Source: Candidatus Chazhemtobacterium aquaticus
GTDB lineage: Bacteria > Patescibacteriota > Microgenomatia > UBA1400 > Chazhemtobacteraceae
Length of the DNA: 64,000 nt
Assembly: GCF_009936135.1 (NCBI RefSeq)
Contig: NZ_CP047901.1
Coordinates: 60,181-124,180, forward strand
Direction of reading: 5' to 3'
Position 1 is the first letter of the stretch. Each line of letters opens with the position of its first letter. The notes under the pieces are model-generated. The model did no database searches. It saw only the letters and a list, made by a program, of their open reading frames with translations, and was not told the DNA's origin. The position numbers and the translations under genes were made by a program. Of the stretch, positions 1 to 64,000 are shown in pieces.

Positions 1-122
1 TCTACTCAGAACTACACTTCGAGAAATGTTTCTTCCCAGACTTTAACTCACAAAAACTTGAATCAGCCATAAAAACCTTCAACAAAAGAAAAAGAAGGTT
101 TGGAGGTGGACATAAAGTATGA
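1..122 (+). CDS. 3' end (C-terminal ~40 aa) of a second cis-prenyltransferase (UppS-like) paralog, truncated by window start
   Basis: Translation of nt 3-119 gives YSELHFEKCFFPDFNSQKLESAIKTFNKRKRRFGGGHKV*. This parallels the C-terminus of the UppS at 1195-1893 (YAELYFEKKLFPDLTPRDIDKAIREYSTRNRRFGRS*). Stop TGA 120-122 overlaps the next ATG 119-121. Confidence 0.5.
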   Translation, partial: YSELHFEKCFFPDFNSQKLESAIKTFNKRKRRFGGGHKV

Positions 123-1198
123 ACATCTCACAAAAAATTTTACATCACAGGGACACCTTCAATCCCCGCTTCAAGGAGTATTTTGAAAATCTAAATAATC
201 GGTTATCCTTCCCTAATAAATCTATCTATCCCAAAATCTGCGTTGATTTAATTAAAGATCTTTCGTTAGTTGGAGGAAAAAGACAAAGGGTAGCCTATTT
301 ATATGAAGCCTTTAGTCTGGGTCAAGGCACAAAGATTACCTCATCAACTGAAAAACATCTAACTGCATGCGCCATAAGTATCGAGCTGTTGCAAACCCAT
401 TTACTTATTCATGATGACATCATCGACAACTCTCCCATCAGAAGAGGTAGTCCAACAACCTTACAACATCTAATCAAAAAGACAAAGTTAGATAATAACA
501 TCCCGTTAGGTATGGCTATCATGGCTGGAGATATTGCGGCATATCTTGCTCTCGATGTACTTCATAGCTGCAACCTACCTCCAAAATTACTTTCCAAAAT
601 CGTCAACATACAAACAACTGCCGGAATCGATACCTTTCTTGGCCAAATATTCGATTTGGAACGAGATATGCCCAACACGCTCTTTAACGAGGATAGCATA
701 ATCGAGCTTGCTGACTTCAAAGCGTCAAGATCGTCCACACTAGCCCCTATGCTAATTGGAATCTCGCTTTCAAGCCAAGACACAACTAACAACATAAATA
801 TAATCAGAAAATACGCCACAAGCGTTGGAATAGCAGGACAACTACAAGACGATTATCTTGGCATGTTCGGTGACCCCGAAAAAACCGGAAAATCAAATAT
901 CTCTGACCTTAAAGAGGGAAAAAGGACTCTCTTAATTACAAAAACATTAGAAACATGCAACAACCAAGAAAAAAAGATTATTAGCCAAGTACTAGGCAAC
1001 CCAACAATCAACCACAAACAAGCAAATATGGTAAAAGAAATTATCAAGAAATACCATGTCGACATTTTATTAAAGAAAACCGCACAAAAATATGCGCAAT
1101 TAGCATACAGTGAAGCTAAAAGTTGGTCTCACTGGAATAAAGAAGCAGTAGATTTCTTCGCTGAATCAGCTAAGTGGTTTATAAATAGAACGGTATGA
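119..1198 (+). CDS. trans-polyprenyl diphosphate synthase (polyprenyl synthetase family)
   Basis: First Asp-rich motif LLIHDDIIDNSPIRRG and second Asp-rich motif GQLQDDYLGMFGD. SD-like GGAGGTGG upstream. ATGA-coupled to the upstream gene fragment. Confidence 0.85.
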   Translation: MNISQKILHHRDTFNPRFKEYFENLNNRLSFPNKSIYPKICVDLIKDLSLVGGKRQRVAYLYEAFSLGQGTKITSSTEKHLTACAISIELLQTHLLIHDDIIDNSPIRRGSPTTLQHLIKKTKLDNNIPLGMAIMAGDIAAYLALDVLHSCNLPPKLLSKIVNIQTTAGIDTFLGQIFDLERDMPNTLFNEDSIIELADFKASRSSTLAPMLIGISLSSQDTTNNINIIRKYATSVGIAGQLQDDYLGMFGDPEKTGKSNISDLKEGKRTLLITKTLETCNNQEKKIISQVLGNPTINHKQANMVKEIIKKYHVDILLKKTAQKYAQLAYSEAKSWSHWNKEAVDFFAESAKWFINRTV

Positions 1199-1893
1199 AA
1201 AACCTAAACACCCAACAACTTAATCACATCGCTATCATCGTAGACGGAAATAGAAGGTGGGCTAAAAGTCGTAACTTGCCCACCTTCAAAGGACACAAAA
1301 AAGGCTTCTCCAATACTATAAAGATAGCGAATCATATACATTCTAGAGGCATCCACACAGTAACATTTTGGTTATTTTCAACAGAAAACTGGAACCGATC
1401 ACAGGAAGAGGTGACATATTTAATGGACTTATACCCAAGTGTTATAGAAAACCATCTAAAAAACTCCCTAAAACACAAAACTAAAATCATCCACTTAGGA
1501 AGAAAGGATAGACTCTCACAAAAAATAATTAATTGCATTAACAAAGCAGAAAAAAATACAGAAAAATTTAAGGATAGAGTCACGTGTATTGCGCTAGATT
1601 ATGGTGGCAAAGATGAAATATCTCGAGCAAGCAAGCTCGTTCAAACAAAAAAACAAGATATGAATCCCGAAAACATTGAGGCCCATCTCGACACCTCAGT
1701 TTTAAAACACCCAAACCCCGACTTAATTTATAGGACCTCGGGAGAACTCAGACTTTCAGGATTTATGACCTGGCAATCAGCATATGCAGAACTATATTTC
1801 GAAAAAAAGCTTTTTCCTGATCTAACCCCTAGAGATATTGACAAAGCTATACGAGAATATTCAACGCGTAACCGACGCTTTGGTCGCTCTTAA
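1195..1893 (+). CDS. uppS: undecaprenyl diphosphate synthase (cis-prenyltransferase)
   Basis: HIAIIVDGNRRWAK, FSTENWNRS, RTSGELRLSGFMTWQSAYAELYF. Start overlaps the preceding stop by 4 nt. Confidence 0.9.
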   Translation: MKNLNTQQLNHIAIIVDGNRRWAKSRNLPTFKGHKKGFSNTIKIANHIHSRGIHTVTFWLFSTENWNRSQEEVTYLMDLYPSVIENHLKNSLKHKTKIIHLGRKDRLSQKIINCINKAEKNTEKFKDRVTCIALDYGGKDEISRASKLVQTKKQDMNPENIEAHLDTSVLKHPNPDLIYRTSGELRLSGFMTWQSAYAELYFEKKLFPDLTPRDIDKAIREYSTRNRRFGRS

Positions 1894-1906
1894 ACAATAA
1901 GCACCT

Positions 1907-7444: not shown

Positions 7445-10006
7445 TCATGAGCTCCTTGAATAAGCAAACTTAACTCCCTCAACCATCGCCACCAATACCA
7501 TCGAAGCCATCACTACAATCAACCAATCCAAGATATCAAGCTCCACAGTTTGGAAAATTTCCTGTAAAAAAGGCACATAAACTACTATCACTTGAAGAAC
7601 GAATCCCATACCAACACCTAACAATAACCACGGGTTCCGCTTCCATCCCACCCTCCAAATCGGTTCCGACAAGGACCGCGAAGAAAATACATAAAACAAG
7701 CTATTTACCCCCAACATTACAAATGCCACCGTCCGAGCATGTTCCAAACTATATTCCAAAATATTGTAAACATAACCAAAAGCCATCAAGGTCATCGCCG
7801 CAGCAACAGAAGATATCATCACAATCAGTGTTACCACCTCACCATCAATTAAACTACCTGACCTACCCCTAGGGGGGTCTTTCAAGACATCACCCTCTCT
7901 GGGTTCCACCGTCAAAGCCATACTCGGAAAACCATCACTAATCAAGTTTATCCATAAAATCTGAGTCGCCAAAATCGGCAAAGGCCAACCCAATAACATT
8001 CCTCCTACTACTACCACAATTTCCGCAAACGCATCAGCCAACAAATACACAATAATTTTCTTCAAGTTATCATATACTCCCCGCCCCTCCTCAATTGCCA
8101 TCACAATCGTCTTAAAGTTACTATCAAGCAACACCACATCCGCCGTCTCTTTACTCACCTCACTCGCCTCATTAACTACGATTCCAATATCCGCCCGCTT
8201 CAACGCCGGCGCATCATTGACTCCATCCCCAGTCATCGCCACTACATTACCACGTCGTTTTAACGCTTCAACTATCCGAAGTTTTTGCTCAGGATTCGTT
8301 CTAGCAAATAATATCACTCGATCAATAACCTCATCTAACCTTGTATCTGAAATCTCCTCTAGCTCATCTCCCTCCATCACCAAGCCATCCACCTCATCAC
8401 CTAACAACTCTAGCTGTTTCAAGATTGCTACCGCCGTTTCTCGATAATCTCCAGTAATCACCTTAACTCCAATCCCCGCCCGTTTAACCTTATTCAAAAC
8501 AGATCTCACCCCCTTACGTACCGGATCCTCGTACACCAAAATTCCTATCCAATCAATATCTCCAATGTCCTCTCGCTTGATCTTCAACTTACCAGAGACT
8601 GTCTTCTGACCAAAACCTACTAACCGATAACCCTTACTTCCCATTTCCTCAAATTTACTCTTCCACGCATCTGCCTCTCTCTTACTCATCCCCTTTGCCA
8701 TAGACAGCACCACCTCCGGCGCTCCAGACACCAACAATTTTTGTTTCACGCCATCCTTATGTAAAGTCGCAATATACTTATCCCTCGAGTTAAATGGCAG
8801 ACTATATACTCGCTCATACTTCTTCTTTAACTCCTCACCACTCTTTACACCTTCACCCAACTTGCCCACTTTCGATCTAGCCCAATCACTCATCCCGTAC
8901 TCCAACGGATCCCTCATATCGTTACATAACACCGCCGTCATCACCATATCTTTCTCTTTCTTTTTACTAGGCTTACCATCTATATCAAGCACCGCTCCTG
9001 TCACTCTCATCTTCCCTTCCGTTAAGGTACCCGTCTTATCTGCACAAATCACATTCACACTTCCCAAGGTCTCCGCCGCCGTCAATCTTCTTACCACCGC
9101 CTTTTGCTTCAAAATTCGCTGCATTCCAATAGCCAAAATCACCGTTAAACTCACCACCAAACCCTCAGGAATAGAGGCGACTGCCAAGGCCACCGCTGTT
9201 GGAAAAATCTCCTCAAAACTGTCTCCCACCGCCAAACCAGCTAATAACACCAATAGTGATACCACTCCCACTAAAACAGCCAGCTGTTTTGACAATCTTT
9301 CCACCTTAATCTGCAGTGGTGTCTGTTCTGCCGGCGCATCCTTCAGTGACTTAGCTACCTTACCCACTGCTGTCTCACCTCCAATCCGAATTACAATCAT
9401 CCTACCCACACCCATTTTTACCTCAGTCCCCATAAAAGCCTTATGCTTGTTATCAACCTTATCAAAAACACTCCTAACCTCTTCCACGCTCTCACATTTC
9501 AACACTCGCCCACTCTCACAATCATACTTTTCAACTGGCGCACTCTCTCCCGTTAAAATTGCCTCATTTGTAAACAACCCTTCCTCGCCTACCAAAATTC
9601 CATCAGCCGGAACTTTATGCTCATCTGCTAAATAAACTAAGTCACCAGGCACCAATTCTCTTGCCAAAACCATCTTCCACTCTCCATCTCGATACACCTT
9701 CGCCCGCGGAGCCAACACACCTTTTAAGGCCTCCAAACTTTTTTCTGCTCTATACTCCTGAAAAAATCCTAACAAAGTATTTATCGCCACCGCAAACAAA
9801 ATCACCCCAGTATCAACATAATCCCCCAGCCAAAACGTCACCACTGACGCTAACAACAAAACATATATCAAAGGCGACTTGAGCTGTAACCAAAATATTT
9901 TTATAGCCGTCAACTTTCTCTCCTGAGCAATTACATTCTCCCCATAAACACTCCTTATTTTTTCCACCTCCTGCGTCTTTAAACCATTTCTCCAATCTCG
10001 ACCCAT
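7445..10006 (-). CDS. P-type (P2) cation-transporting ATPase, Ca2+-ATPase-like
   Basis: Phosphorylation motif ICADKTGTLT. Hinge motif MTGDGVNDAPALKRADIGIV. PEGL motif in M4 (SIPEGLVV). 853 aa. Confidence 0.9.
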   Translation of the reverse strand: MGRDWRNGLKTQEVEKIRSVYGENVIAQERKLTAIKIFWLQLKSPLIYVLLLASVVTFWLGDYVDTGVILFAVAINTLLGFFQEYRAEKSLEALKGVLAPRAKVYRDGEWKMVLARELVPGDLVYLADEHKVPADGILVGEEGLFTNEAILTGESAPVEKYDCESGRVLKCESVEEVRSVFDKVDNKHKAFMGTEVKMGVGRMIVIRIGGETAVGKVAKSLKDAPAEQTPLQIKVERLSKQLAVLVGVVSLLVLLAGLAVGDSFEEIFPTAVALAVASIPEGLVVSLTVILAIGMQRILKQKAVVRRLTAAETLGSVNVICADKTGTLTEGKMRVTGAVLDIDGKPSKKKEKDMVMTAVLCNDMRDPLEYGMSDWARSKVGKLGEGVKSGEELKKKYERVYSLPFNSRDKYIATLHKDGVKQKLLVSGAPEVVLSMAKGMSKREADAWKSKFEEMGSKGYRLVGFGQKTVSGKLKIKREDIGDIDWIGILVYEDPVRKGVRSVLNKVKRAGIGVKVITGDYRETAVAILKQLELLGDEVDGLVMEGDELEEISDTRLDEVIDRVILFARTNPEQKLRIVEALKRRGNVVAMTGDGVNDAPALKRADIGIVVNEASEVSKETADVVLLDSNFKTIVMAIEEGRGVYDNLKKIIVYLLADAFAEIVVVVGGMLLGWPLPILATQILWINLISDGFPSMALTVEPREGDVLKDPPRGRSGSLIDGEVVTLIVMISSVAAAMTLMAFGYVYNILEYSLEHARTVAFVMLGVNSLFYVFSSRSLSEPIWRVGWKRNPWLLLGVGMGFVLQVIVVYVPFLQEIFQTVELDILDWLIVVMASMVLVAMVEGVKFAYSRSS

Positions 10007-19284: not shown

Positions 19285-20154
19285 TCACACTTGGCACTCA
19301 GGACAATAATATGTTCCTCTTCCTCCGATTTTGGTTTTAACAATTTCTCCACCACAGTTTAAACAAGTCTCACCCTCCCGTTTGTACACCAAAAAATGCT
19401 CCTGATATTTCCCACCCAATCCTTGAGTGTCTCGAAAATCAGAATATGTCGCACCACCATATCTTATTCCCCGCCTCATCACTTCTTTTAAGGCCGCGTG
19501 TAATAACCCAACCTCTTTCTTGGTTAAACTGTTAGCTATTCGACTGGGGCAAATTTTTGCTAAGTTTAAAGCATCATTTGCATAGATGTTTCCTACCCCA
19601 CCGATTTTCGCGCTATCCATAATCACCAGTTTCACCGACCTAGCTGATTTAGATAACACTCGCGTTAAATACCCAAGACTAAAGCTTTCGTCTACCACAT
19701 CAGGTGGCAACTCATTCTCCATCTTTCTCCAGTCATCCCCAGACAACACTCTAATCCACCCAAAAATCCGCATATCATTAAAAAACAATTTCGACCCATC
19801 AACTAAATTAAATATCACTCGAGTATGCTTGTTTGGCAATTCACCCACCCAATCCCTAGTTGGATGTCCCCCTACCACCCCTCGCTTCAAATGATTAACA
19901 TTCCAGGACTTCAAGCGCCACACCAACTGACCAGTCATTTTCAGATGTACTAATAACACCATCTCCCACCTATCAAACTCCAAAACAACCATCTTTGCCC
20001 TCCTGAAAACCCTAGCGATCTTTCTACCACACAAGTCTTTGGCATCACCCTGGAATGACTTTTTATTCAACACCTCAACCCTATCAATCACCCTTCCCTT
20101 TATTTTTTCATCCAATTGCCGAGCAGTTATCTCCACCTCAGGTAACTCAGGCAT
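19285..20154 (-). CDS. mutM: formamidopyrimidine-DNA glycosylase
   Basis: N-terminal PELPEVE catalytic motif and C-terminal zinc finger CLNCGGEIVKTKIGGRGTYYCPECQ. Confidence 0.9.
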   Translation of the reverse strand: MPELPEVEITARQLDEKIKGRVIDRVEVLNKKSFQGDAKDLCGRKIARVFRRAKMVVLEFDRWEMVLLVHLKMTGQLVWRLKSWNVNHLKRGVVGGHPTRDWVGELPNKHTRVIFNLVDGSKLFFNDMRIFGWIRVLSGDDWRKMENELPPDVVDESFSLGYLTRVLSKSARSVKLVIMDSAKIGGVGNIYANDALNLAKICPSRIANSLTKKEVGLLHAALKEVMRRGIRYGGATYSDFRDTQGLGGKYQEHFLVYKREGETCLNCGGEIVKTKIGGRGTYYCPECQV

Positions 20155-24854: not shown

Positions 24855-24869
24855 ACGGCCTATTCTACC

Positions 24870-26765: not shown

Positions 26766-26781
26766 AGCCTCAAACCATCAC

Positions 26782-38140: not shown

Positions 38141-38175
38141 TCTCCCTCCATTCTACTCCAATTACACAAGCTCTA

Positions 38176-39420: not shown

Positions 39421-39472
39421 AGCTTGGCCATCATCCTAACACCCACTCTCAAGTTTTGTAAAGCTTTCCTGG

Positions 39473-40114: not shown

Positions 40115-40142
40115 CCATTCTAGAACGCCTAAACCAACAGGG

Positions 40143-40664
40143 TCAATCTTTAGGCGACTTGAGCATGACCCGGCACTTTACAGACATTTCCATTACTTCT
40201 CGAAAACCATCCACCAACTTTCGCGCCTCCTCCAGACTAACTAGCCTCTCTCTACCAGCAAAATAATGAAAAATCATGTTTCTTCCTTCTCTCCACGCCT
40301 TCCACATTAATCTAGGAAACTTCTTATACTCAGCATCATCTGTTTTTTCACACATCCTTTGTAAATCATCAAACAACCACCAACCATTCCTATACTTAGC
40401 CGGCAAACTCGGGTTCAAACTTCTCCCAATTCTAAAGTGCTTACTCAGGTAAGTTTTCTCACTGATTAAGCCAATATTATGCAAGAACTTCTTCACAAAA
40501 CCTTCATATGCTTTCGCCATCGGAAAAACCACAAACGAATAATCCACCAGCTCTTCAGCGCCCATCTCTTCACGGTCGAGCAAATAATAAGCCTCCTCAA
40601 CCAAATCACGCATTGTCGGCTCTAAGTACTCAAACCAATCTTGCTCTTTAAACATACCCCCCAT
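40143..40664 (-). CDS. hypothetical protein
   Basis: ORF only. Confidence 0.3.
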   Translation of the reverse strand: MGGMFKEQDWFEYLEPTMRDLVEEAYYLLDREEMGAEELVDYSFVVFPMAKAYEGFVKKFLHNIGLISEKTYLSKHFRIGRSLNPSLPAKYRNGWWLFDDLQRMCEKTDDAEYKKFPRLMWKAWREGRNMIFHYFAGRERLVSLEEARKLVDGFREVMEMSVKCRVMLKSPKD

Positions 40665-40713
40665 AATAACATGACCCCTCCATTATCAATCCATCAAACT
40701 ATATAATGTCCCC

Positions 40714-43299
40714 ATGGCTTCAAAATCTCGATCAAAAAAAACTACCCCTCCCTCTCCGACACCAAAAACCAAGCAATCTCGAAAGATAAAGTTGTCTCAT
40801 TTTCTTTCCCTATCACGCCTCCGGCTTCCTCATCCTCAACTCCATCTCCCCCACCTCCAGCGTAAACACATAATAATCATCAGTATTCTGATAGCTACCT
40901 TACTCTTCACAATTGGCTTTATCCTCTTTAAAGATGTCCCCAATCCCACTTCTCTATCCAAACGTCCTGCTCCCGTATCAACTCAAATTCTTGATCGCCA
41001 TGGCCAACTTCTCTACGAGATTTACACCGACCAAAACCGTACTCCAGTCTCCATCAAAGACTTACCCGATCATCTCACCCAAGCTACCATCTCCATCGAA
41101 GACAAAAACTTCTACTCCCACCATGGCCTGGACTTAAGAGGCATTGCCCGAGCCGCTTTCAAAACCCTCACTGGCCAGCGTCTCGAAGGCGGATCCACCA
41201 TCACTCAACAATTGGTCAAAACTGCTCTGCTTAATGATCCGTCCCGCACCATCTCACGTAAAATCAAAGAGGCAGCTCTTGCCATTCTCACCGAAATTAT
41301 CTACTCCAAAGACCAAATTCTAGAGATGTACCTCAACAACGTACCCTACGGTGGCACTGCTTACGGCATCGAAACAGCAGCCCGTCAATACTTCAATAAA
41401 TCAGCCAAAGACCTCACTCTTGCAGAAGCCACCCTACTTGCCGGACTTCCCCAAGCCCCCACCCGTTACTCGCCCTTTGGTGCTCACCCCGAACTAGCCA
41501 AACAACGCCAAGAACAAGTCCTTCGCCGTCTCCACGAAGATGGATATATCACCTCAGAAGAACTCGAGACTGCCAAGAATGAATCACTAAATTATGCCAG
41601 CGTTAAATCAACCATCAAAGCTCCCCACTTCGTCCTTTGGATCAAAGACCTTCTCGTCGACCGCTACGGCGAAGATTTAGTCAACCTTGGTGGACTTAGA
41701 GTTACCACTACCCTAGACCTTAATCTGCAAGAATACGCCCAAGCCTCCCTATCAGCCGAAGTTGACAAGTTAGAACGTCTCAAGGTCGGTAATGGAGCCG
41801 CCCTAGTCACCAAGCCAAAAACCGGAGAAGTGCTTGCTATGATCGGCTCAAGAGACTACTTCGACAAAGAACATGACGGAGCTGTCAATATCACCCTCCG
41901 TTACCGCCAACCAGGATCCTCAATCAAACCCCTCAATTACGCCGTCGGACTCCTTAAGGGTTGGCCAACCTCCACCATGTATCTTGATATACCCACTTGT
42001 TTCACTCAGTCTGGCCAAAAAGCATATTGCCCAAAAAACTATGACAACACCTGGCACGGGCCGACCCAAATGCGCTTCGCTCTTGGTAACTCCTACAACA
42101 TCCCTGCAGTTAAACAACTTGCCCTCAACGGTCTTGACGCTATGATCGCCACTGCCTCAGCCATGGGCATCACTGGCTGGGACAATCCCGATCGCTTTGG
42201 TCTCTCACTCACTCTAGGCGGTGGAGAAGTCCGCATGATTGACATGGCAGTCGCCTTCGGCGTCTTCGCCAACTCGGGCGTCAAAGTACCCCTTAATCCA
42301 ATTCTAAAAGTTGAAACATATACCGGACAAGTTCTTGAAGAAACCAATCTTGAAACCATCGCCGACCTCGCCTCAACCTCGCCCCTCAACTGGGATGATT
42401 TCTGGAGCAAACCACGCTCATCCAACAACCCAACCACTCAAACCACCTCCGTTGATCTGGGAATTGCCTCACCCTATTCCAGTTTCTTTGATCGCTTACT
42501 TGGCAAAAAACCCGGCAACCAAACTCTTAACATCACCATTCCCGAAACTCAGGTTACCACCGTCCTCCCTGAAGAAGTAGCCTACATCATCTCCCATATC
42601 CTCCTCGACAACAATGCCAGGGTTGGCGCCTTTGGATCAAGCAGCGAGCTCGTCATTCCTGGACATACTGTCTCCGTCAAAACCGGAACCACCAACGATC
42701 TACGTGACAACTGGACCATTGGCTTTACTCCCGACTATCTCGTCACCACCTGGGTCGGCAACAACGATAACACCTCCATGAGCTACGTTGCCTCAGGTGT
42801 TACCGGCGCCTCGCCCATCTGGAACGATATCATGCGTTTTGTCCTAAAAGACGAAAAAGACCGCTTTCCCACTCGCCCCCAAGGTATCGCCGATGCCCAA
42901 GTCTGTACCCTAACTGGTCTGCTTGCCTCTCCCGACGCCCCTTGTGACACCCGAAACGAAATCTTCATTAAAGATCACCTCCCTCTCCCCTCCACCACTT
43001 TACCCACTCGCAAGCAAATCTGGATCAGGCGGGACACCAACCAACCCCTTCTTCCAGGCGAAGAGGTTATTGACCTCAATCTTGAAGAACACACCGTTGT
43101 CTCAGACCCCTTCACTCAAGAATTCTGCCTTGACTGCGCCTATCCCCAAGAAACCAAGCCCAACCCTGACAATCCCGATGAACAAATTCCCACGGGCAAA
43201 ATCTCCTACCCCACCTTCATCATCAACTACGATCTCTTCAAAGCTAAAAACATCACTCCCACCTCCTGGATCAATACCACTCAACCACCCATAAACTAA
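40714..43299 (+). CDS. class A penicillin-binding protein (bifunctional transglycosylase/transpeptidase)
   Basis: GT51 motifs EDKNFYSHHG and GGSTITQQLVK. Transpeptidase motifs SSIK, SYN and KTGTTND. N-terminal TM anchor. Confidence 0.9.
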   Translation: MASKSRSKKTTPPSPTPKTKQSRKIKLSHFLSLSRLRLPHPQLHLPHLQRKHIIIISILIATLLFTIGFILFKDVPNPTSLSKRPAPVSTQILDRHGQLLYEIYTDQNRTPVSIKDLPDHLTQATISIEDKNFYSHHGLDLRGIARAAFKTLTGQRLEGGSTITQQLVKTALLNDPSRTISRKIKEAALAILTEIIYSKDQILEMYLNNVPYGGTAYGIETAARQYFNKSAKDLTLAEATLLAGLPQAPTRYSPFGAHPELAKQRQEQVLRRLHEDGYITSEELETAKNESLNYASVKSTIKAPHFVLWIKDLLVDRYGEDLVNLGGLRVTTTLDLNLQEYAQASLSAEVDKLERLKVGNGAALVTKPKTGEVLAMIGSRDYFDKEHDGAVNITLRYRQPGSSIKPLNYAVGLLKGWPTSTMYLDIPTCFTQSGQKAYCPKNYDNTWHGPTQMRFALGNSYNIPAVKQLALNGLDAMIATASAMGITGWDNPDRFGLSLTLGGGEVRMIDMAVAFGVFANSGVKVPLNPILKVETYTGQVLEETNLETIADLASTSPLNWDDFWSKPRSSNNPTTQTTSVDLGIASPYSSFFDRLLGKKPGNQTLNITIPETQVTTVLPEEVAYIISHILLDNNARVGAFGSSSELVIPGHTVSVKTGTTNDLRDNWTIGFTPDYLVTTWVGNNDNTSMSYVASGVTGASPIWNDIMRFVLKDEKDRFPTRPQGIADAQVCTLTGLLASPDAPCDTRNEIFIKDHLPLPSTTLPTRKQIWIRRDTNQPLLPGEEVIDLNLEEHTVVSDPFTQEFCLDCAYPQETKPNPDNPDEQIPTGKISYPTFIINYDLFKAKNITPTSWINTTQPPIN

Positions 43300-43386
43300 C
43301 CACAAACGAACCCATAATATTGACATTTATCCTCCACTCCCCTAAACTATCCCCATCGTTCTTTCTGCTTTACAGGAGAAAACGGC

Positions 43387-43566
43387 ATGTCAACGATTGA
43401 TTACTCCAACATGTCATCCCAAGAGCTAGAACACCTTGCTCCAGATGATCCGGATGCGGCATGGGAGCTGTTTAACCGAATCCTTGATCAAGGTGAACCA
43501 CTAGGAGACCTGGAACCCGACGAGGCTCAGTCCCCTTCTTCTCCAGCAGTCGTTGTGAACGACTAA
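43387..43566 (+). CDS. small acidic hypothetical protein (59 aa), not in the supplied ORF track
   Basis: ATG preceded by AGGAG 7 nt upstream. Translates as MSTIDYSNMSSQELEHLAPDDPDAAWELFNRILDQGEPLGDLEPDEAQSPSSPAVVVND. Followed by a hairpin plus T-tract. Confidence 0.4.
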   Translation: MSTIDYSNMSSQELEHLAPDDPDAAWELFNRILDQGEPLGDLEPDEAQSPSSPAVVVND

Positions 43567-43584
43567 CCCGGAACAGTAAGAACA

Positions 43585-43623
43585 ACACCCCTGTGCCTAC
43601 CCGCCCAGGGGTGTCTTTTTTCT
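43585..43623 (+). terminator. rho-independent terminator-like hairpin plus T-tract
   Basis: acacccctg / caggggtgt 9-bp stem with a 12-nt loop, followed by cttttttct. Confidence 0.55.
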
Positions 43624-43642
43624 ACAAGGTACAATTATCACC

Positions 43643-44935
43643 ATGGAAATCACTCCCCCATCACCATCTCCAAAACCTTCTCGTGTTCATATTGGCCCTA
43701 TCATCCTTGTCATTCTCTCTCTCACAGCCTTCATTCTTGCCGGTATCATCTATCTAACTCGCTCCACTCCTCCACCCCTTCTCTCACCACTAGCCCAAAT
43801 TGCTAATCCAGTCGCCGATATATTAGGAATTAACCCAAAACATCCAGAAAAAATCATCTACGGCTTTCTACCTTTCTGGAACATGAATGAATCCGACAAT
43901 TTCAACTATCACCTACTCACCCATGTCGCCTATTTTGGTCTAGACTACAACCCAGACGGAACTATCCACAAAATCAGTGATGACAACACCCTTGAACCAG
44001 GTTGGAATCAACTCAACTCAAGCCAAGCCAATCAGGTTTTCCGTTCAACCAAATCCGCCCGAGGTAAGACTATCATTGTCATGCGAGCCATGACCCAAAA
44101 ACTAATTGAGTCACTTGTCAATAATCCCGATCACCGCCAACAGGTCATCGACTCAACCATGGAGATTCTTGATCAAAAAAACTTTGACGGGATCAATATT
44201 GATTTCGAATATGTTGGCACTCCAGACACTCAAACTAAAAATAACTTTTCTCTTCTTGTAAAACAATTAAGCTCTGTCTGCAAACAAACGCGTCCTGGCT
44301 GTGAAGTTAGTATAGATGTTTTCGCAGACTCAGCCGTTAAAAACCGAATTTGGGATTACGCCAGCATCACTCCTCACATTGACTACGTTATTATTATGGC
44401 CTACGACTTCTTCCGCTCATCCTCATCCCAAGCCGGACCCGTCGCCCCATTAAGAGGGGCATGCTCAGAATCATCATCAGACCAATCGACTTGTCTCGAA
44501 TATGACGTAGCCCAAACTATCGCCGACTTTTCCAAAATAATCCCTGCTGAAAAAATTATTCTTGGAGTTCCTTACTACGGCTATCAATGGCAAACCACCA
44601 CGTCTGAGTTCTTAAGCAACACCTATCAAAAAACCGGTGCCACAGCCACTTATAAACGCATCCAGGAACTCCTAACATCATCAAACCAAGAAGACAGATC
44701 AGCTATTCTCGGCCTCTCAACTCACTGGAACGACACCACCCTTACTCCTTGGATTACCTACACCGACACTGAAGGCAATATCCAACAAATCCACTACGAA
44801 GACGAACATTCCCTTTCTCTAAAATATGATCTGGTCAACCAAAGCAATATTGCCGGAATCGCTATCTGGGCTCTTGGATATGATGGACACTGGCCACAAC
44901 TATGGCAGCTTCTTCAACACAAATTTCTCAAATAA
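43643..44935 (+). CDS. glycoside hydrolase family 18 domain protein (chitinase/peptidoglycan hydrolase-like), membrane-anchored
   Basis: GH18 catalytic motif FDGINIDFEY (DxxDxDxE). N-terminal TM helix. Confidence 0.8.
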   Translation: MEITPPSPSPKPSRVHIGPIILVILSLTAFILAGIIYLTRSTPPPLLSPLAQIANPVADILGINPKHPEKIIYGFLPFWNMNESDNFNYHLLTHVAYFGLDYNPDGTIHKISDDNTLEPGWNQLNSSQANQVFRSTKSARGKTIIVMRAMTQKLIESLVNNPDHRQQVIDSTMEILDQKNFDGINIDFEYVGTPDTQTKNNFSLLVKQLSSVCKQTRPGCEVSIDVFADSAVKNRIWDYASITPHIDYVIIMAYDFFRSSSSQAGPVAPLRGACSESSSDQSTCLEYDVAQTIADFSKIIPAEKIILGVPYYGYQWQTTTSEFLSNTYQKTGATATYKRIQELLTSSNQEDRSAILGLSTHWNDTTLTPWITYTDTEGNIQQIHYEDEHSLSLKYDLVNQSNIAGIAIWALGYDGHWPQLWQLLQHKFLK

Positions 44936-45017
44936 CCAATCAAAAGAGATCAAAACACATCATCTCTAATATTTTCTCTCTTTATTTTCATCCCCTAACC
45001 TTGCTAAAATTGTCCCA

Positions 45018-47603
45018 ATGCGCCACACCGGACAGGGGTCATTGATAAACAGATCTCTATACCAACTCACCCATAAAATCACAAAATACTTTAATACCCT
45101 AAATCATCTATCAAACAAGCAACACAAAAATAAGCTGCCAATCAATCACAATCCTATAAATCGAGTCACTCAATTCCTCAAATATCTTGGTCGTCCTGTT
45201 TTCAACATTCTTCTCCTCCTCATCCTCTTCTCCAACTTTACAATCACCCAAACTCTCAACTTACTTGGTTTAATCGGTCGTGCCACCCTCAACCTCCCTC
45301 CTGCAATTTTAAACCTCTTTAAACACGTAAGCTTACCCCGTCTTTCCAAACCATCTATACCAAAGATTGGTCTTCCACACCTGCCTAATCTGAAGCTTCA
45401 TTTTTCTCAAAAAACTCATCACCCCATCCAATTCTCAATTCCTCAATTACCCCATTTACAACCACCCCACTTTCCCAAACTCCCTTCGCCTCGCATAAAA
45501 CTACGCCCATCTCTCCTCAATCTCTCCGTCCTCACGCTTATTTTCATCTCCACCTTTCTTTATTACTGGATTCTTAAAGATCTACCCTCGCCACGAAAAC
45601 TTTCAAATCTACAGCCGGAACTAACTACCCAAATCTTTGATCGACACGGTCGACTTCTTTACAAGATATATGACCAAGAAAAACGCACTCTAGTCTCTCT
45701 GGAAGATATCCCCCTCCATACTCGCCAAGCCACCATCGCTATTGAAGACAAGCACTTCTACTCTCATCAAGGCCTTTCGCTAAAAGGCATAATCCGTGCC
45801 ATTCAAAGAAACCTTACTACTCAAGAGATCCAGGGCGGTTCCACCATCACCCAACAACTCATTAAAAATACCTTACTTACAAACGAAAAAACCCTACAAC
45901 GCAAAATCAAAGAAGTTATTCTTGCTATTCACACCGAACTGATCTTCAGTAAAGACCAGATTCTCCAGATGTACTTCAACCAAGTTGGCTACGGTGGCCC
46001 AGCATATGGGATTCAGGAAGCCGCTCAACAATACTTTGCCAAAAATGTCTCAGATCTAAATCTAGCCGAGTCAGCCCTACTTGCTGGCCTACCGCAATCA
46101 CCCACTCGCTACTCACCTTTTGGTGCCCACCCAGAACTCGCCAAGCAACGTCAAATCCAAGTACTAGATCGCATGCTTGAAGATGAGTATATTACCCTTC
46201 AACAATATCAAGACGCGCTTAATACCCCCCTTACTTTCGCCCCACCCCAAACCAGTATTCTTGCTCCTCATTTCGTCATGTATATCAAAGACCTCCTCGT
46301 CTCATACTTCGGCGAAGAACTTGTCACCCACGGAGGTCTCCAAGTCCACACCACTCTAGACCTAGATATCCAAAACCTTGCCCAATCCATCCTCAATCAA
46401 GAGCTTGATCAACTTAAAAATCTCCATGTCAACAACGGAGCCGTACTTATCACCAACCCTCCTTCCGGCGAAATCCTAGCTATGATTGGATCAAAAGACT
46501 ACTTTGATATTGCTCACGATGGTCAGGTAAACCTAACTACCAGTCTTCGCCAACCAGGCTCAGCCATTAAGCCTATCAACTATGCTCTTGCTTTTGAAAC
46601 CGGACTGACTCCCTCAACCATTATCCACGACACTCCCATAACCTTTAATCTCCCCGGATCCAAACCCTACACTCCCAACAACTATGACGGACGTTTCCAC
46701 GGAGCCGTTACGCTCAGAACCGCTCTTGCCTCATCATATAATGTTCCAGCCATCAAGCTCCTAAATAGAAACGGGGTTATCCAAATGGCCAGATTAGCAT
46801 CACAAATGGGTATCACCACCTGGGACAACCCTGCTCGCTACGGCCTTTCTCTTACCCTGGGAAGTAATGAGGTCAAAATGACCGACATGGCTGAAGTCTA
46901 CGGTACCTTCGCCAATTTAGGTGTTCACGTACCCCTTAATCCCATCCTCTCCATCAAAGACTCCTCCGGTCAACCTCTTAAATTCAATCTCTGCAACCTA
47001 CCCCAAACCGATACCAATCAATCCACCTTCACTGTTCAAGCTGCCACTACAAATACCAACTGCCAACCACATCAAGTCATCTCACCAGAAACCGCTTATT
47101 TAATCTCCGACATACTCTCTGACAACCAAGCCAGAACTCCTGCATTTGGCTCTCGTTCAGTTCTCCACATCCCTGATTACCAAGTCGCCGTTAAAACCGG
47201 TACTAGCAATGATCTGCGTGACAACTGGACCATTGGCTATACACCTGAACTCCTAGTTGCTACCTGGGTTGGCAACAACGATAACTCACCCATGAGTCGC
47301 ATTGCTTCAGGCATCACCGGAGCCTCACCCATCTGGAGTCAAATTACCTCACAAATCCTTAAAAACACCGTTCCAACTACCTTCCCCACCCCATCCAACA
47401 TTGTCAAGGTTCCCATTTGCACTCTCACCAACACTCTTACCTGTTCTGCTTGCCCCTCAACTAGGTTAGAAACCTTCATCCAAGGCACCCAGCCCACTAT
47501 TTCCTGTACCACCGAACAAATCAACCAAGCTCTTGAAAAGAACACATCCTCACCTTTAGCCCAATCTTCTTTAGATCAAAACGATAACGCCTCCTCAGAT
47601 TAA
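45018..47603 (+). CDS. class A penicillin-binding protein paralog with long Pro/Leu-rich N-terminal extension
   Basis: EDKHFYSHQG, GGSTITQQLIK, SAIK, SYN and KTGTSND. The RYSPFGAHPELAKQRQ block is identical to the first PBP. True start uncertain. Confidence 0.85.
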   Translation: MRHTGQGSLINRSLYQLTHKITKYFNTLNHLSNKQHKNKLPINHNPINRVTQFLKYLGRPVFNILLLLILFSNFTITQTLNLLGLIGRATLNLPPAILNLFKHVSLPRLSKPSIPKIGLPHLPNLKLHFSQKTHHPIQFSIPQLPHLQPPHFPKLPSPRIKLRPSLLNLSVLTLIFISTFLYYWILKDLPSPRKLSNLQPELTTQIFDRHGRLLYKIYDQEKRTLVSLEDIPLHTRQATIAIEDKHFYSHQGLSLKGIIRAIQRNLTTQEIQGGSTITQQLIKNTLLTNEKTLQRKIKEVILAIHTELIFSKDQILQMYFNQVGYGGPAYGIQEAAQQYFAKNVSDLNLAESALLAGLPQSPTRYSPFGAHPELAKQRQIQVLDRMLEDEYITLQQYQDALNTPLTFAPPQTSILAPHFVMYIKDLLVSYFGEELVTHGGLQVHTTLDLDIQNLAQSILNQELDQLKNLHVNNGAVLITNPPSGEILAMIGSKDYFDIAHDGQVNLTTSLRQPGSAIKPINYALAFETGLTPSTIIHDTPITFNLPGSKPYTPNNYDGRFHGAVTLRTALASSYNVPAIKLLNRNGVIQMARLASQMGITTWDNPARYGLSLTLGSNEVKMTDMAEVYGTFANLGVHVPLNPILSIKDSSGQPLKFNLCNLPQTDTNQSTFTVQAATTNTNCQPHQVISPETAYLISDILSDNQARTPAFGSRSVLHIPDYQVAVKTGTSNDLRDNWTIGYTPELLVATWVGNNDNSPMSRIASGITGASPIWSQITSQILKNTVPTTFPTPSNIVKVPICTLTNTLTCSACPSTRLETFIQGTQPTISCTTEQINQALEKNTSSPLAQSSLDQNDNASSD

Positions 47604-49995: not shown

Positions 49996-50658
49996 ATGAA
50001 TGTCCGCATCGAACCCTCCTGGAAAAAGGTTCTCCAAACAGAATTTAACCAACCCTACTTCAAAAAACTTACTGAGTTTGTCAAAAAAGAATATATCTCC
50101 ACCACCGTCTATCCACCCCCAAAATTCATCTTTAATGCTTTTAACTCCACTCCATTTAACCAAGTCAAGGTTGTTATTTTAGGCCAAGACCCCTATCACG
50201 GCCCCAACCAAGCCCACGGCCTCTGTTTCTCAGTTCTCCCCCCTACTCCTCCGCCACCCTCACTCCAGAATATCTACAAAGAGATAAAAAGCGACATCGG
50301 CCATATTACCAACACCTCAGGTGATCTCACTCATTGGACCAAACAAGGCATTCTTTTACTTAATGCCACTCTCACTGTCAGGGCCCACCAAGCCGGCTCC
50401 CATCAAAACAAAGGTTGGGAACAATTTACTGACGCTGTAATTAAGGTCCTCAATCAACAAAAAACCGGTCTCGTCTTTATTCTTTGGGGTGCTTACGCCC
50501 GCAAAAAAGGTGCCAACATCGATCGCCAACGCCATTTAGTTATTGAGTCAACTCATCCATCACCCCTCTCTGCCCATGCGGGTTTTTTTGGCAGTAAACC
50601 CTTCTCCCAAACTAACACCTATCTCCTCCTCAATGGACATCAACCCATCAACTGGTAA
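49996..50658 (+). CDS. ung: uracil-DNA glycosylase (family 1)
   Basis: VKVVILGQDPYHGPNQAHGLCFSV water-activating loop and HPSPLSA motif. Confidence 0.95.
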   Translation: MNVRIEPSWKKVLQTEFNQPYFKKLTEFVKKEYISTTVYPPPKFIFNAFNSTPFNQVKVVILGQDPYHGPNQAHGLCFSVLPPTPPPPSLQNIYKEIKSDIGHITNTSGDLTHWTKQGILLLNATLTVRAHQAGSHQNKGWEQFTDAVIKVLNQQKTGLVFILWGAYARKKGANIDRQRHLVIESTHPSPLSAHAGFFGSKPFSQTNTYLLLNGHQPINW

Positions 50659-62667: not shown

Positions 62668-62695
62668 CTCTATTTAAGTATATCACCGCCGACCA

Positions 62696-63046
62696 TCACT
62701 CCACCAACGCCCTAATCGCAGACAAAGGCAACAACACACATTTCATTCTCGCTGGATTTACCTCTCCCATTAACTCAACCACCACCCTCCCATCAAGCTC
62801 TCTCACCTCATCAACCTTCATACCCTTAACCTTATCACTTAACATTGAGGCTGCTGCCGTTGATAATGCACACCCCACCCCTTTAAACCGAATATCTCTG
62901 ATCACTCCTCCATCCACCTTAGCGTAAAACTCAACCATATCTCCACACGTTGCATTACTCTGCTTACTTCTTTTATTAGCCCCTTTAAGATCACCAAAAT
63001 TCCTTGGATTTCTGGCATGATCAATAATTTCTTCTGAGTACTCCAT
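62696..63046 (-). CDS. sufU: SufU/IscU-type Fe-S cluster scaffold (NifU N-terminal domain family)
   Basis: DHARNPRNFG, ATCGDMVEF and GVGCALSTAAASM conserved Cys contexts. Confidence 0.85.
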   Translation of the reverse strand: MEYSEEIIDHARNPRNFGDLKGANKRSKQSNATCGDMVEFYAKVDGGVIRDIRFKGVGCALSTAAASMLSDKVKGMKVDEVRELDGRVVVELMGEVNPARMKCVLLPLSAIRALVE

Positions 63047-64000
63047 TATCTTTTCCGAAATACTTTTTTAACCTCAACCAACTTATCAATCAAGTAATCA
63101 ATCTCAGCCCTAGTGTTATACACATAAACACTCGCCCTTGCTACTGCCATCTCTCCTAGACTCTCAACCACTGGAGCTCCACAATGCTGACCGCTCCTAA
63201 TCGCAATTCCAAAACCATCCAACACCTGCGCCGTATCATGAGCATGTATACCTGGCAAGTTAAAGGTAACCACCCCTGCTCGTTTTTTATAATCCCCCGT
63301 GCCATACACCTCTGCCTTACCCTTTATTTTCTCTAAAGCATAAGCCACCAGATCCTGCTCATGCTTCCATACCTCATTCATTCCCAAATCTTCTAGATAA
63401 TCGACCGCCGCCCCCAGTCCCACCATTCCTGCCATATTAGGAGTCCCCGCCTCAAATTTCCATGGCAACTCGTTCCACTCACTCTTACCAAGCTCAACCT
63501 GTCCAATCATGTCCCCACCATACAAAAACGGTGGCATCTCCTCTAGTATCTCCCGCCTACCCCACAACACCCCTATTCCCGTTGGCCCCAACATTTTATG
63601 TCCAGAAAACACCAACCAATCAACTCCCATTTTCCCAACCTCAGTCTTCATCACTGGCACACTCTGAGAACCGTCTATCAAGATCTTTGCCTTTGTTTTT
63701 GCCCGAACCATCTTAACGATTTTCTCAAGCGGATTTACCGTTCCTAGCACATTTGATACCGCTGTTATCGCCACCAGTTTCGTTTTCCCTCCCAAAGTCT
63801 GCTCTAAACTCATTACTCTCACTCCTTGAAACTCCCTCTTCTCTCCTCCTCTCATCCTTATCTCACCCCCCTCATCTACATCCACCACCCGCAATACTGC
63901 TCCCTTTTTCTGGCACAACATCTGCCAAGTTACTAAGTTAGAATGATGTTCCATCAAAGACACCACCACCTCATCTCCTTTACCAATATTTTTCTCCCCC
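63046..64000 (-). CDS. sufS: cysteine desulfurase (SufS/NifS class V aminotransferase), N-terminus outside the window
   Basis: The reading frame stays open to the window edge (…GEKNIGKGDEVVVSLMEHHSNLVTWQ…). PLP-Lys context FSGHKMLGPTGIG and active-site Cys loop RSGQHCGAP. Stop overlaps the sufU start. Confidence 0.85.
   Translation of the reverse strand, partial: GEKNIGKGDEVVVSLMEHHSNLVTWQMLCQKKGAVLRVVDVDEGGEIRMRGGEKREFQGVRVMSLEQTLGGKTKLVAITAVSNVLGTVNPLEKIVKMVRAKTKAKILIDGSQSVPVMKTEVGKMGVDWLVFSGHKMLGPTGIGVLWGRREILEEMPPFLYGGDMIGQVELGKSEWNELPWKFEAGTPNMAGMVGLGAAVDYLEDLGMNEVWKHEQDLVAYALEKIKGKAEVYGTGDYKKRAGVVTFNLPGIHAHDTAQVLDGFGIAIRSGQHCGAPVVESLGEMAVARASVYVYNTRAEIDYLIDKLVEVKKVFRKR

What the first reader, a model, noticed from the sequence alone, without database searches (positions are those of the whole stretch)
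1..64000. Extreme, orientation-independent strand asymmetry (C much greater than G, A greater than T on the plus strand) that shapes protein composition
Three hand-counted 60-nt samples, near 2401, 41221 and 25501, gave G/C counts of 7/15, 10/19 and 11/19 on the plus strand, whether the local gene is on plus or minus. Consequently plus-strand proteins (both PBPs, QueA, the GT4-hydrolase fusion, the RT tail) are rich in P/T/S/Q/N/H/L/I. Minus-strand proteins (FtsH, P-type ATPase, T4CP-like ATPase) are rich in G/V/E/K/R/W/M. The polarity never flips, so there is no replication origin or terminus in the window. About two thirds of genes sit on the G-rich strand, which is presumably the leading strand. 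The skew also explains the many long P/T/S-rich antisense ORFs in the six-frame track.
Basis: seen in the sequence. Interest (0 to 1): 0.5.

Follow-up and report, generated by a model that had tools for sequence, protein, structure and literature searches.

The report
Extreme one-sided G/C strand bias
One DNA strand of this small groundwater bacterium carries almost three times more C than G whichever way the genes point; this is real and still being produced by lopsided mutation, but it was already published for this same genome in 2020.

Summary
The plus strand has C 21,020 and G 7,377, a GC skew of -0.48. All 64 one-kb bins are negative, and so are the fourfold-degenerate sites of all 59 genes (about -0.73 to -0.84). 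A>T is weak (+0.034) and is not a strand property.

The window matches Candidatus Chazhemtobacterium aquaticus Ch65: its ribonucleotide reductase (RNR) is 845/845 identical. The genome-wide G/C disparity of Ch65 was published by Kadnikov et al. 2020, and a 2024 survey of 17,873 complete genomes shows it as an obvious outlier. The finding is therefore already known.

New here:
- Six independent strain assemblies show the same skew.
- Polarised synonymous substitutions show that the G-rich strand takes about 3.5x more C>T and about 3x more A>G than the C-rich strand, in genes of both orientations.
- These rates predict an equilibrium skew of -0.72, against -0.80 observed. The bias is ongoing and mutational, and it resembles the mitochondrial heavy strand.
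- Orthologues drift in opposite amino-acid directions according to strand.
- The G-poor strand has half the stop-codon density, which explains the spurious ORFs.

The cause is still unknown; near-unidirectional replication with long single-strand exposure is the most likely.

The parts
1..64000 (.). Continuous segment in which the plus strand is C-rich and G-poor (GC skew -0.48) with no sign change. The same polarity continues for at least 9.9 kb upstream of the window.
   Evidence: The upstream 9,882 bases, read from Logan contig SRR6186653_16844, have skew -0.46.
34245..36782 (-). Class II (B12-dependent) ribonucleotide reductase gene on the G-rich strand. It was used to identify the organism and to fetch strains and relatives.
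   Evidence: It is 845/845 identical to QHO63067.1 of Ca. Chazhemtobacterium aquaticus. Its fourfold plus-strand skew is -0.75.
24244..46782 (.). Stretch aligned with six syntenic strain assemblies that differ from the window by 1-5.6%. It was used for the polarised substitution spectrum.
   Evidence: All strains show skew -0.44 to -0.46. At fourfold sites G>A is 0.33 against C>T 0.093, and T>C is 0.148 against A>G 0.050, all in plus-strand sense.
40714..47603 (+). PBP1a, GH18 and second PBP1a genes on the C-rich strand. They are examples of plus-strand genes whose synonymous sites are as G-depleted as those of minus-strand genes.
   Evidence: Fourfold skews are -0.86, -0.85 and -0.81. Pfam families Transgly+Transpeptidase and Glyco_hydro_18.
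24870..26765 (-). FtsH gene on the G-rich strand, an example of a G/V/E/M-enriched protein.
   Evidence: Pfam AAA and Peptidase_M41. Fourfold plus-strand skew is -0.78.
8862..9635 (+). Example of a long spurious ORF (257 aa) on the G-poor strand, antisense to the P-type ATPase gene at 7445-10006.
   Evidence: There are 20 non-gene open frames of at least 150 codons on the plus strand and none on the minus strand.
49996..50658 (+). Uracil-DNA glycosylase gene. Uracil excision capacity is encoded, so the excess C>T is not explained by simple loss of this enzyme.
   Evidence: Pfam UDG, E = 3.9e-17.
19285..20154 (-). Formamidopyrimidine-DNA glycosylase (Fpg/MutM) gene. Removal of 8-oxoguanine is encoded, which fits the absence of G>T changes.
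   Evidence: Pfam Fapy_DNA_glyco, H2TH and zf-FPG. G>T was seen at 0 of 100 fourfold G sites.
1..1893 (+). Weak-skew island formed by a prenyl-transferase/synthase gene cluster that starts about 630 bp upstream of the window. Overall skew is only -0.13 to -0.22 and GC is 0.37-0.38.
   Evidence: The fourfold skew is still -0.44 and -0.57.

Best explanation
The window is a piece of the roughly 0.8-Mb chromosome of Candidatus Chazhemtobacterium aquaticus Ch65, or a clone identical to it (Microgenomatia, order UBA1400, candidate phyla radiation).

Its C>>G asymmetry is a true property of the DNA. It is produced by a mutation pressure that treats the two physical strands differently, whatever the direction of the genes. 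The G-rich strand (window minus strand) fixes C>T about 3.5 times and A>G about 3 times more often than the C-rich strand does, and T>G about 4 times more often. Seen from the plus strand, G is continually lost to A, and T and A are converted to C.

These rates alone predict the observed composition, so the skew is at or near mutational equilibrium and is being maintained now. It spills over into non-synonymous sites, pushing proteins encoded on the two strands towards opposite amino-acid compositions. It also halves the stop-codon density on the G-poor strand.

Shown here: the asymmetry, its independence of gene orientation, the substitution spectrum, the equilibrium, and the effects on proteins and ORFs.

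Inferred: excess C>T and A>G on one strand is the signature of base damage or deamination in single-stranded DNA, as on the mitochondrial heavy strand. The published whole-chromosome skew never changes sign. The most likely cause is therefore that the replication fork crosses (nearly) the whole chromosome in one direction. In that case the same parental strand, the G-rich one, would always be the strand exposed single-stranded, and in a slow-growing cell it would be exposed for unusually long.
For: Identity:
- The RNR is 100% identical to Ch65 protein QHO63067.1.
- There are no differences over 22.5 kb from a Logan contig of run SRR6186653.
- The genome-wide disparity is published: G 14.97%, C 29.83%, a monotonic cumulative skew and no AT trend (PMC7143001).
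- Ch65 is shown as an obvious outlier in a survey of 17,873 complete genomes (PMC11514846).

Real, not an artefact:
- Six further assemblies from different projects carry the same skew, -0.44 to -0.46.

Mutational and orientation-independent:
- Fourfold-site skew is -0.84 in plus genes and -0.73 (plus sense) in minus genes.
- All 59 genes are negative.

Spectrum at fourfold sites, 320 polarised substitutions, plus-strand sense:
- G>A 33/100 against C>T 83/889 (p = 1e-9).
- T>C 92/623 against A>G 33/660 (p = 3e-9).
- A>C 18/660 against T>G 4/623 (p = 0.004).
- A<->T changes are symmetric.
- The direction is the same in plus genes and minus genes taken separately, and when only safely polarised terminal branches are used.

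Equilibrium:
- The predicted equilibrium is GC skew -0.72 and GC 0.43. The observed values are -0.80 and 0.435.

No sequence motif:
- No neighbouring-base motif accompanies the asymmetric transitions, which argues against a motif-specific deaminase.

Graded lineage trait with a conserved sign in the syntenic locus:
- 0.44 in Ch65.
- 0.40 in a relative whose RNR is 72% identical.
- 0.29 at 69% identity.
- 0.14 to 0.16 in relatives at 48-60% identity.
Against: - Nothing in the window shows the direction or mode of replication. The unidirectional model is an inference from published whole-genome skew, which I could not recompute.
- Genome-wide, genes are not enriched on the G-rich strand (389 against 449) and the rRNA genes lie on the C-rich strand. 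If the G-rich strand is the leading strand, that would mean many head-on genes.
- A purely deaminative process (transitions only) cannot make the plus strand 60% pyrimidine. A transversion asymmetry is also needed. It is seen (A>C against T>G) but rests on 22 events.
- True intergenic sites show no detectable asymmetry (61 substitutions, low power).
- No clear positional gradient of fourfold composition appears across the window.
- The window (-0.48) and its upstream flank (-0.46) are more skewed than the published genome mean (-0.33). I cannot explain this from gene orientation alone.
- A uracil-DNA glycosylase gene is present.
- Parsimony polarisation at very biased, fast sites carries some error.
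Confidence: 0.6

Rival explanations
1. Asynchronous strand-displacement or rolling-circle-like replication of the whole chromosome, as in mitochondria. One parental strand, the G-rich one, would be displaced and stay single-stranded for a large part of each cycle. This differs from a conventional unidirectional theta fork with Okazaki fragments.
For: The asymmetric pair C>T plus A>G on the G-rich strand is the heavy-strand signature of mtDNA. The magnitude (-0.48 overall, about -0.8 at fourfold sites) is of the size I recall for animal mtDNA (from memory), and it is more than twice the largest value among 67 prokaryotic metagenome loci. Some bacterial genomes have been reported with a skew pattern read as rolling-circle replication (PMC7111523).
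Against: No positional gradient of fourfold A/(A+G) or C/(C+T) is seen across the 64 kb. The GC-skew trend is weak (rho = -0.28, p = 0.03) and is influenced by the weak-skew island. However, the window is only 8% of the chromosome. AT skew is nearly absent, unlike in vertebrate mtDNA. No replication genes were examined. No cellular chromosome is known to replicate this way.
Confidence: 0.15
2. The replication direction is as in the best explanation, but the asymmetry comes from different error spectra or fidelities of leading- and lagging-strand synthesis, or from strand-biased mismatch repair, rather than from damage to exposed single-stranded DNA.
For: The T>G/A>C asymmetry is not a deamination product. 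There is no sequence-context signature. Uracil-DNA glycosylase and Fpg genes are present.
Against: Polymerase asymmetries known in bacteria give far smaller skews (own knowledge). The dominant asymmetric classes are exactly the two deamination-type transitions.
Confidence: 0.15
3. Ordinary bidirectional replication, with the skew set by transcription or gene orientation, or by selection on codon or amino-acid usage.
For: 80% of the window's genes lie on the G-rich strand, and coding strands are generally G-rich at codon position 1.
Against: Synonymous fourfold sites of plus-strand genes are as G-depleted on the plus strand (-0.84) as those of minus-strand genes (-0.73). Synonymous codon choice is therefore opposite in the two gene sets, and a single tRNA pool cannot favour both. 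The substitution asymmetry is the same in both orientations. Genome-wide gene counts are balanced.
Confidence: 0.03
4. An artefact of sequencing, assembly or chemical conversion of the DNA.
For: None beyond the oddity of the composition.
Against: Intact, homologous genes lie on both strands. The skew is identical in seven assemblies from NCBI, JGI and Logan runs of different projects, at 1-5.6% divergence. The skew is graded among relatives. The base counts do not fit a C>T or G>A conversion of a strand-symmetric genome.
Confidence: 0.01

Closest known systems
Genome-wide G/C strand disparity of Candidatus Chazhemtobacterium aquaticus Ch65 (Kadnikov et al. 2020, Microorganisms 8:320, PMC7143001)
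   Same: It is the same organism and the same phenomenon: one strand is strongly C-rich, there is no AT disparity, there is no turning point, and gene-strand distribution does not explain it. The window's RNR is 100% identical to the Ch65 protein.
   Different: The paper reports only whole-genome base counts (skew -0.33) and cumulative curves, and it proposes unidirectional theta replication. It gives no codon-position, substitution-spectrum, equilibrium or protein-composition analysis. The window is locally more extreme (-0.48).
Monotonic but weaker skew in Ca. Collierbacteria and Ca. Beckwithbacteria (order UBA1400), same paper
   Same: The polarity is the same in the syntenic RNR locus. The trait is graded: local skews are 0.40, 0.29 and 0.14-0.16 in progressively more distant relatives.
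   Different: The magnitude is two to three times lower. Published genome values correspond to about -0.14 and -0.16.
Canonical replication-associated GC skew of bacterial chromosomes (Lobry 1996; Grigoriev 1998; own knowledge, also summarised)
   Same: One strand carries G>C irrespective of gene orientation. The skew is attributed to asymmetric mutation during replication.
   Different: The canonical skew changes sign at the origin and terminus, and I recall it as usually about 0.2 or less (from memory). Among 67 metagenome loci the maximum was 0.205. Here the value is 0.48, with about 0.8 at neutral sites, and the published genome shows no sign change. T>A on the G-rich strand is almost absent.
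Heavy/light-strand asymmetry of animal mitochondrial DNA
   Same: There is excess C>T and A>G on the G-rich strand, giving a very G-poor complementary strand. The magnitude is comparable, and the effects on codon and amino-acid usage are strand-dependent.
   Different: mtDNA also has a marked AT skew and a positional gradient tied to the time spent single-stranded. Neither is evident here. This is a cellular chromosome of about 0.8 Mb with genes on both strands.
Bacterial genomes whose skew pattern was read as rolling-circle replication (Chen et al. 2020, Genome Res, Table S7; PMC7111523)
   Same: The cumulative skew lacks the usual two-armed shape.
   Different: The genomes seen in that table are large Actinobacteria, and a search of the paper's supplementary files for Collierbacteria or Beckwithbacteria names found none. 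I did not compare their skew magnitudes.

Membership tests
Ca. Chazhemtobacterium / UBA1400-type whole-chromosome G/C disparity | The sequence belongs to the Ch65 genome or lineage | tested here: met
   The RNR is 845/845 identical to QHO63067.1. GC of 44.4% compares with the published 44.8%.
Ca. Chazhemtobacterium / UBA1400-type whole-chromosome G/C disparity | One strand has C>>G while A is about equal to T | tested here: met
   C 32.8%, G 11.5%, A 28.8%, T 26.9%.
Ca. Chazhemtobacterium / UBA1400-type whole-chromosome G/C disparity | Cumulative skew is monotonic over the entire closed chromosome | not testable with these tools
   It is monotonic over the window plus 9.9 kb upstream. The whole-chromosome statement is taken from PMC7143001.
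Canonical bidirectional replication skew | The skew is present at synonymous sites regardless of gene orientation | tested here: met
Canonical bidirectional replication skew | The sign reverses at origin and terminus, and the magnitude lies in the usual bacterial range | tested here: not met
   No reversal occurs in 74 kb, and |skew| of 0.48 compares with a maximum of 0.205 among 67 comparison loci. The published genome shows no reversal.
Mitochondrial heavy-strand-type single-strand damage asymmetry | Excess C>T and A>G on the G-rich strand | tested here: met
   The ratios are 3.5x and 3.0x, with p about 1e-9 for each, in both gene orientations.
Mitochondrial heavy-strand-type single-strand damage asymmetry | Neutral-site composition shows a positional gradient that follows the time spent single-stranded | tested here: inconclusive
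   Fourfold GC skew against position gives rho = -0.28, p = 0.03. A/(A+G) and C/(C+T) show no significant trend. The window covers only 8% of the chromosome.
Mitochondrial heavy-strand-type single-strand damage asymmetry | Strand-displacement (asynchronous) replication | not testable with these tools
   This needs coverage or ssDNA profiling, or replication-gene analysis of the whole genome.
Transcription- or selection-driven strand bias | The sign of the bias at synonymous sites follows the coding strand | tested here: not met
   The plus-strand sign is the same for plus and minus genes.

The most novel reading that the evidence does not exclude
The chromosome of this free-standing candidate-phyla-radiation bacterium is copied by an asynchronous, mitochondrion-like strand-displacement (or rolling-circle-like) mechanism. 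One parental strand would stay single-stranded for long periods. This would make it the first cellular chromosome known to replicate in that way, and it would explain the most extreme Chargaff-rule violation among complete prokaryotic genomes.
Probability: 0.15. Interest if true: 0.8.

Novelty: already known. Interest (0 to 1): 0.4.

Why it matters
The phenomenon itself is not new. It was published for this very genome in 2020, and a 2024 survey shows it as an obvious outlier among complete genomes. Its cause remains unexplained.

The analysis here turns a compositional curiosity into a defined mutational phenotype:
- There are roughly threefold strand differences in C>T and A>G.
- The composition is at equilibrium.
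- The trait is graded across relatives.

This makes the replication-mode hypothesis testable with existing metagenomes, through coverage profiles and a genome-wide spectrum.

There are also practical consequences:
- Public gene calls in two assemblies miss a real 861-aa gene on the G-poor strand.
- That strand is littered with long false ORFs.
- Proteins of the same lineage drift towards opposite amino-acid compositions according to strand. This can mislead homology searches and phylogenies.

Tried and rejected
- **Conversion or assembly artefact: rejected.** The base counts do not fit a conversion, the genes are intact, and seven independent assemblies agree.
- **Transcription or codon selection: rejected.** Fourfold-site analysis by gene orientation rules it out.
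- **Motif-specific deaminase (APOBEC-like): no support.** Neighbouring bases of the asymmetric transitions match expectation.
- **Metagenome-contig scan with an RNR alignment.** It returned only distant relatives (43-64% identity). I used them only as a background distribution of skew.
- **Intergenic substitution spectrum.** It yielded 61 events and no detectable asymmetry. The test was underpowered, and it probably covered constrained sequence.
- **Positional gradient test.** The result was inconclusive.
- **Coordinate error.** That call used coordinates off by one for five short genes. This was corrected, and the results did not change materially.
- **ARAGORN with its intron option.** It did not find the intron-containing tRNA. 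Manual splicing was needed.
- **Chen et al. 2020 supplementary tables.** A search for Collierbacteria or Beckwithbacteria entries found none.


Full report
**1. The observation**

The plus strand of the window holds C 21,020, A 18,405, T 17,198 and G 7,377. GC content is 44.4%, GC skew (G-C)/(G+C) is -0.480, AT skew is +0.034 and purines make up 40.3%. All 64 one-kb bins and all 32 two-kb bins have negative GC skew, from -0.68 to -0.17, so the sign never changes. A further 9.9 kb upstream, read from a public contig identical to the window, has skew -0.46. By contrast, AT skew is negative in 26 of the 64 one-kb bins. For scale, 67 metagenomic loci carrying a homologue of the window's ribonucleotide reductase (RNR) have a median |skew| of 0.047 and a maximum of 0.205.

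**2. Independence of gene orientation**

I took the 54 long ORFs that behave as genes, and later added five short called genes. I then split the base composition by codon position and by gene strand.

- At fourfold-degenerate sites, plus-strand genes have G 4.0% and C 44.9% (skew -0.84).
- Minus-strand genes, read in coding sense, have G 36.8% and C 5.7% (+0.73). On the plus strand that is again C-rich and G-poor.
- DNA outside the long ORFs has skew -0.48.
- Each of the 59 genes has a negative plus-strand fourfold skew, from -0.30 to -1.00.

Synonymous codon choice is therefore opposite in the two gene sets. That rules out translational selection and transcription as the cause. AT skew at fourfold sites is -0.18 in plus genes and about +0.02 (plus sense) in minus genes.

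**3. Identity of the sequence and prior knowledge**

The RNR at 34245-36782 (minus strand) is 845/845 identical to QHO63067.1 of Candidatus Chazhemtobacterium aquaticus, whose contig is 801,504 bp long. A Logan contig of run SRR6186653 is identical to the window over 22.5 kb.

Kadnikov et al. [quoted passage not shown] They reported the following:
- G 14.97%, C 29.83%, A 27.87% and T 27.33%.
- A near-linear fall of cumulative GC skew over the whole chromosome, with no AT trend.
- 449 genes on the C-rich strand and 389 on the G-rich strand, with the rRNA genes on the C-rich strand.
- Weaker versions of the pattern in Collierbacteria and Beckwithbacteria.
- A hypothesis that the origin and terminus are adjacent, or that replication is of the unidirectional theta type.

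A 2024 survey of 17,873 complete genomes shows Ch65 as an obvious outlier for P(G) = P(C) (PMC11514846). A literature search found no later mechanistic work. The finding is thus a rediscovery of a published but unexplained feature.

**4. Not an artefact**

Six further syntenic assemblies differ from the window by 1.0-5.6% at the nucleotide level. They are GenBank MWCC01000006 and DYGF01000007, JGI 3300029893, and Logan assemblies of SRR30949869, SRR29552641 and SRR22541074. All have the same skew, -0.44 to -0.46, over the shared 14-22 kb.

**5. What maintains the skew**

I aligned these strains over window 24244-46782. I polarised substitutions by parsimony, treating states confined to one terminal lineage or one two-member clade as derived. 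At fourfold sites there are 320 substitutions. In plus-strand sense:

| Substitution | Count and rate | Complementary type | Count and rate | Ratio | p |
|---|---|---|---|---|---|
| G>A | 33/100 = 0.33 | C>T | 83/889 = 0.093 | 3.5x | 1e-9 |
| T>C | 92/623 = 0.148 | A>G | 33/660 = 0.050 | 3.0x | 3e-9 |
| A>C | 18/660 | T>G | 4/623 | 4.3x | 0.004 |

A>T and T>A are equal. G>T was not seen (0/100).

Put in terms of the G-rich strand, C>T, A>G and T>G are each several-fold more frequent there than on the C-rich strand. The pattern holds separately in plus-strand and minus-strand genes. It also holds when only branches that cannot contain the root are used.

The stationary composition of the estimated 12-rate matrix has GC skew -0.72 and GC 0.43. 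The observed values at the same sites are -0.80 and 0.435. Gains and losses of each base are balanced. The skew is therefore an equilibrium that is being maintained now, not a relic. Neighbouring bases of the asymmetric transitions match expectation, so there is no sign of a motif-specific deaminase. True intergenic sites gave only 61 substitutions and no detectable asymmetry, which I treat as lack of power.

**6. Mechanistic reading**

Excess C>T and A>G on one strand is what the mitochondrial heavy strand shows. There it is attributed to damage of single-stranded DNA during asynchronous replication (PMC11792237). In bacteria the parental strand that serves as lagging-strand template has the same sequence as the leading strand. 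It is the strand exposed single-stranded, and it becomes G-rich (established view, summarised).

The published skew never changes sign. The simplest model is therefore that the fork crosses nearly the whole chromosome in one direction, so the same strand is always the exposed one. The size of the effect suggests long exposure or weak repair of such damage. This step is inference.

Several points count against a simple picture:
- A uracil-DNA glycosylase gene and an Fpg gene are present in the window.
- Transitions alone cannot make the plus strand 60% pyrimidine, so the A>C/T>G asymmetry matters. It rests on 22 events.
- If the G-rich strand is the leading strand, the genome-wide gene counts and the rRNA orientation imply much head-on transcription.
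- Across the window there is no convincing positional gradient of neutral composition.

Polymerase-error asymmetry and a true strand-displacement mode remain open rivals.

**7. A graded lineage trait**

In the same syntenic locus, oriented on the RNR coding strand, the overall skews are as follows:

| Genome | RNR identity to window | Overall skew |
|---|---|---|
| Ch65 | 100% | 0.44 |
| GCA_964354845.1 | 72% | 0.40 |
| Logan assembly of ERR13624443 | 69% | 0.29 |
| CP055308 (802-kb genome) | 59% | 0.14 |
| A Beckwithbacteria MAG | 48% | 0.15 |
| A Woesebacteria-labelled MAG | 60% | 0.16 |

The fourfold-site skews run in the same order. The sign is conserved, and the magnitude rises towards Chazhemtobacterium.

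**8. Consequences**

*Proteins.* H, Q, T, N and P are 2.1-2.8 times and I 1.7 times more frequent in plus-strand proteins. M, V, E, W and G are about 2-3.7 times and R 1.4 times more frequent in minus-strand proteins. K does not differ. In alignments with orthologues from the two less skewed relatives, the window's plus-strand proteins show net gains of T, Q, H and P. Its minus-strand proteins show net gains of V, M and W in both comparisons, with E and R in one and G in the other, and net losses of I, N, S and F.

*Open reading frames.* Stop codons occur at 34 per 1000 codons on the plus strand and 68 per 1000 on the minus strand, as the base frequencies predict. There are 20 non-gene open frames of at least 150 codons on the plus strand and none on the minus strand, and they are rich in S, L, T and P.

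*Annotation.* In two public assemblies the gene calls omit the 861-aa PBP1a at 40714-43299. They list small opposite-strand ORFs there instead.

**9.

The description and its consequences are right. The conclusion that there is no origin or terminus in the window does not follow in a genome whose skew has no turning point anywhere. The leading-strand assignment rests on a local gene bias (47 of 59 genes here) that the genome as a whole does not share.

**10. Open point**

The window (-0.48) and its flank (-0.46) exceed the published genome mean (-0.33). Even the plus-strand genes here average about -0.40, so gene orientation alone does not account for the gap. Other parts of the chromosome must be less skewed, or a short part must be reversed. 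I could not fetch the rest of the genome.

**11. Verdict**

This is a real and extreme feature, and it is already known. The new material is the mutational spectrum, the equilibrium, the graded phylogenetic distribution and the effects on proteins and ORFs. The replication mode that causes it is still untested.

Noticed in passing
window 58423-62667: A diversity-generating retroelement (DGR). A 135-nt template repeat at 58423-58557 (plus strand) lies just upstream of the reverse-transcriptase gene at 58722-59855 (Pfam RVT_1, E = 4e-24). It matches the last roughly 43 codons of the 796-aa LamG/FGE-sulfatase-fold protein gene at 60277-62667 (minus strand; variable repeat at 60272-60406). There are 8 mismatches, and all 8 fall at adenines of the template copy (A>G six times, A>T once, A>C once). 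[quoted passage not shown]
   Followed up: yes
window 28880-29133 (+): A tRNA(CAU) gene is interrupted in its anticodon loop by a 182-nt group I intron at 28910-29091 (Rfam RF00028, 79 bits). ARAGORN recognises a 76-nt tRNA-Met(cat) only after splicing at U28909 | G29091. It lies about 210 bp from an intact tRNA-Met(cat) on the other strand at 28592-28666.
   Followed up: partly
L008 18031-18558 (also L010 and L014); corresponds to window about 28.6-29.1 kb: Three strain assemblies carry an extra ORF between the DivIC-like gene and the TrpRS gene, near the intron-containing tRNA. In L008 the interval is about 460 bp longer than in the window and the ORF is 175 aa. It has no Pfam match.
   Followed up: partly
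window 40714-43299 (+): The public gene calls for the Logan SRR6186653 contig and for GenBank DYGF01000007 do not list this 861-aa PBP1a gene. They list several 33-114-aa ORFs on the opposite strand instead. Other assemblies call the gene correctly. This is probably a side effect of the unusual composition on gene finders.
   Followed up: partly
window 1-1893 and about 630 bp upstream (L016 9252-11775): Three plus-strand prenyl-transferase/polyprenyl-synthase genes form an island of weak skew (-0.13 to -0.22 overall; fourfold -0.44 and -0.57) with lower GC (0.37-0.38) and strong A>T (+0.20 to +0.27). This may reflect later acquisition or stronger constraint.
   Followed up: partly
window 43000-46800 vs L012 (JGI 3300029893): L012 and L011 encode the same RNR protein. 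All 277 differences private to L012 fall within 43-46 kb, in the GH18 gene and the second PBP1a gene. This suggests a divergent, recombined allele of these cell-wall genes.
   Followed up: no
window 1-64000 vs published genome: The local GC skew (-0.48, and -0.46 in the 9.9 kb upstream) is clearly stronger than the published whole-genome value (-0.33). The cause is unknown. It implies weaker-skew or reversed segments elsewhere in the chromosome.
   Followed up: partly
window 29628-33294: A tyrosine recombinase gene (29628-30500, plus strand) sits next to a 780-aa DUF8128/TraG-like ATPase gene (30952-33294, minus strand). The pair is conserved in order in all strains and in relatives down to 59% RNR identity. 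It looks like a stable chromosomal module rather than a recent mobile element.
   Followed up: no
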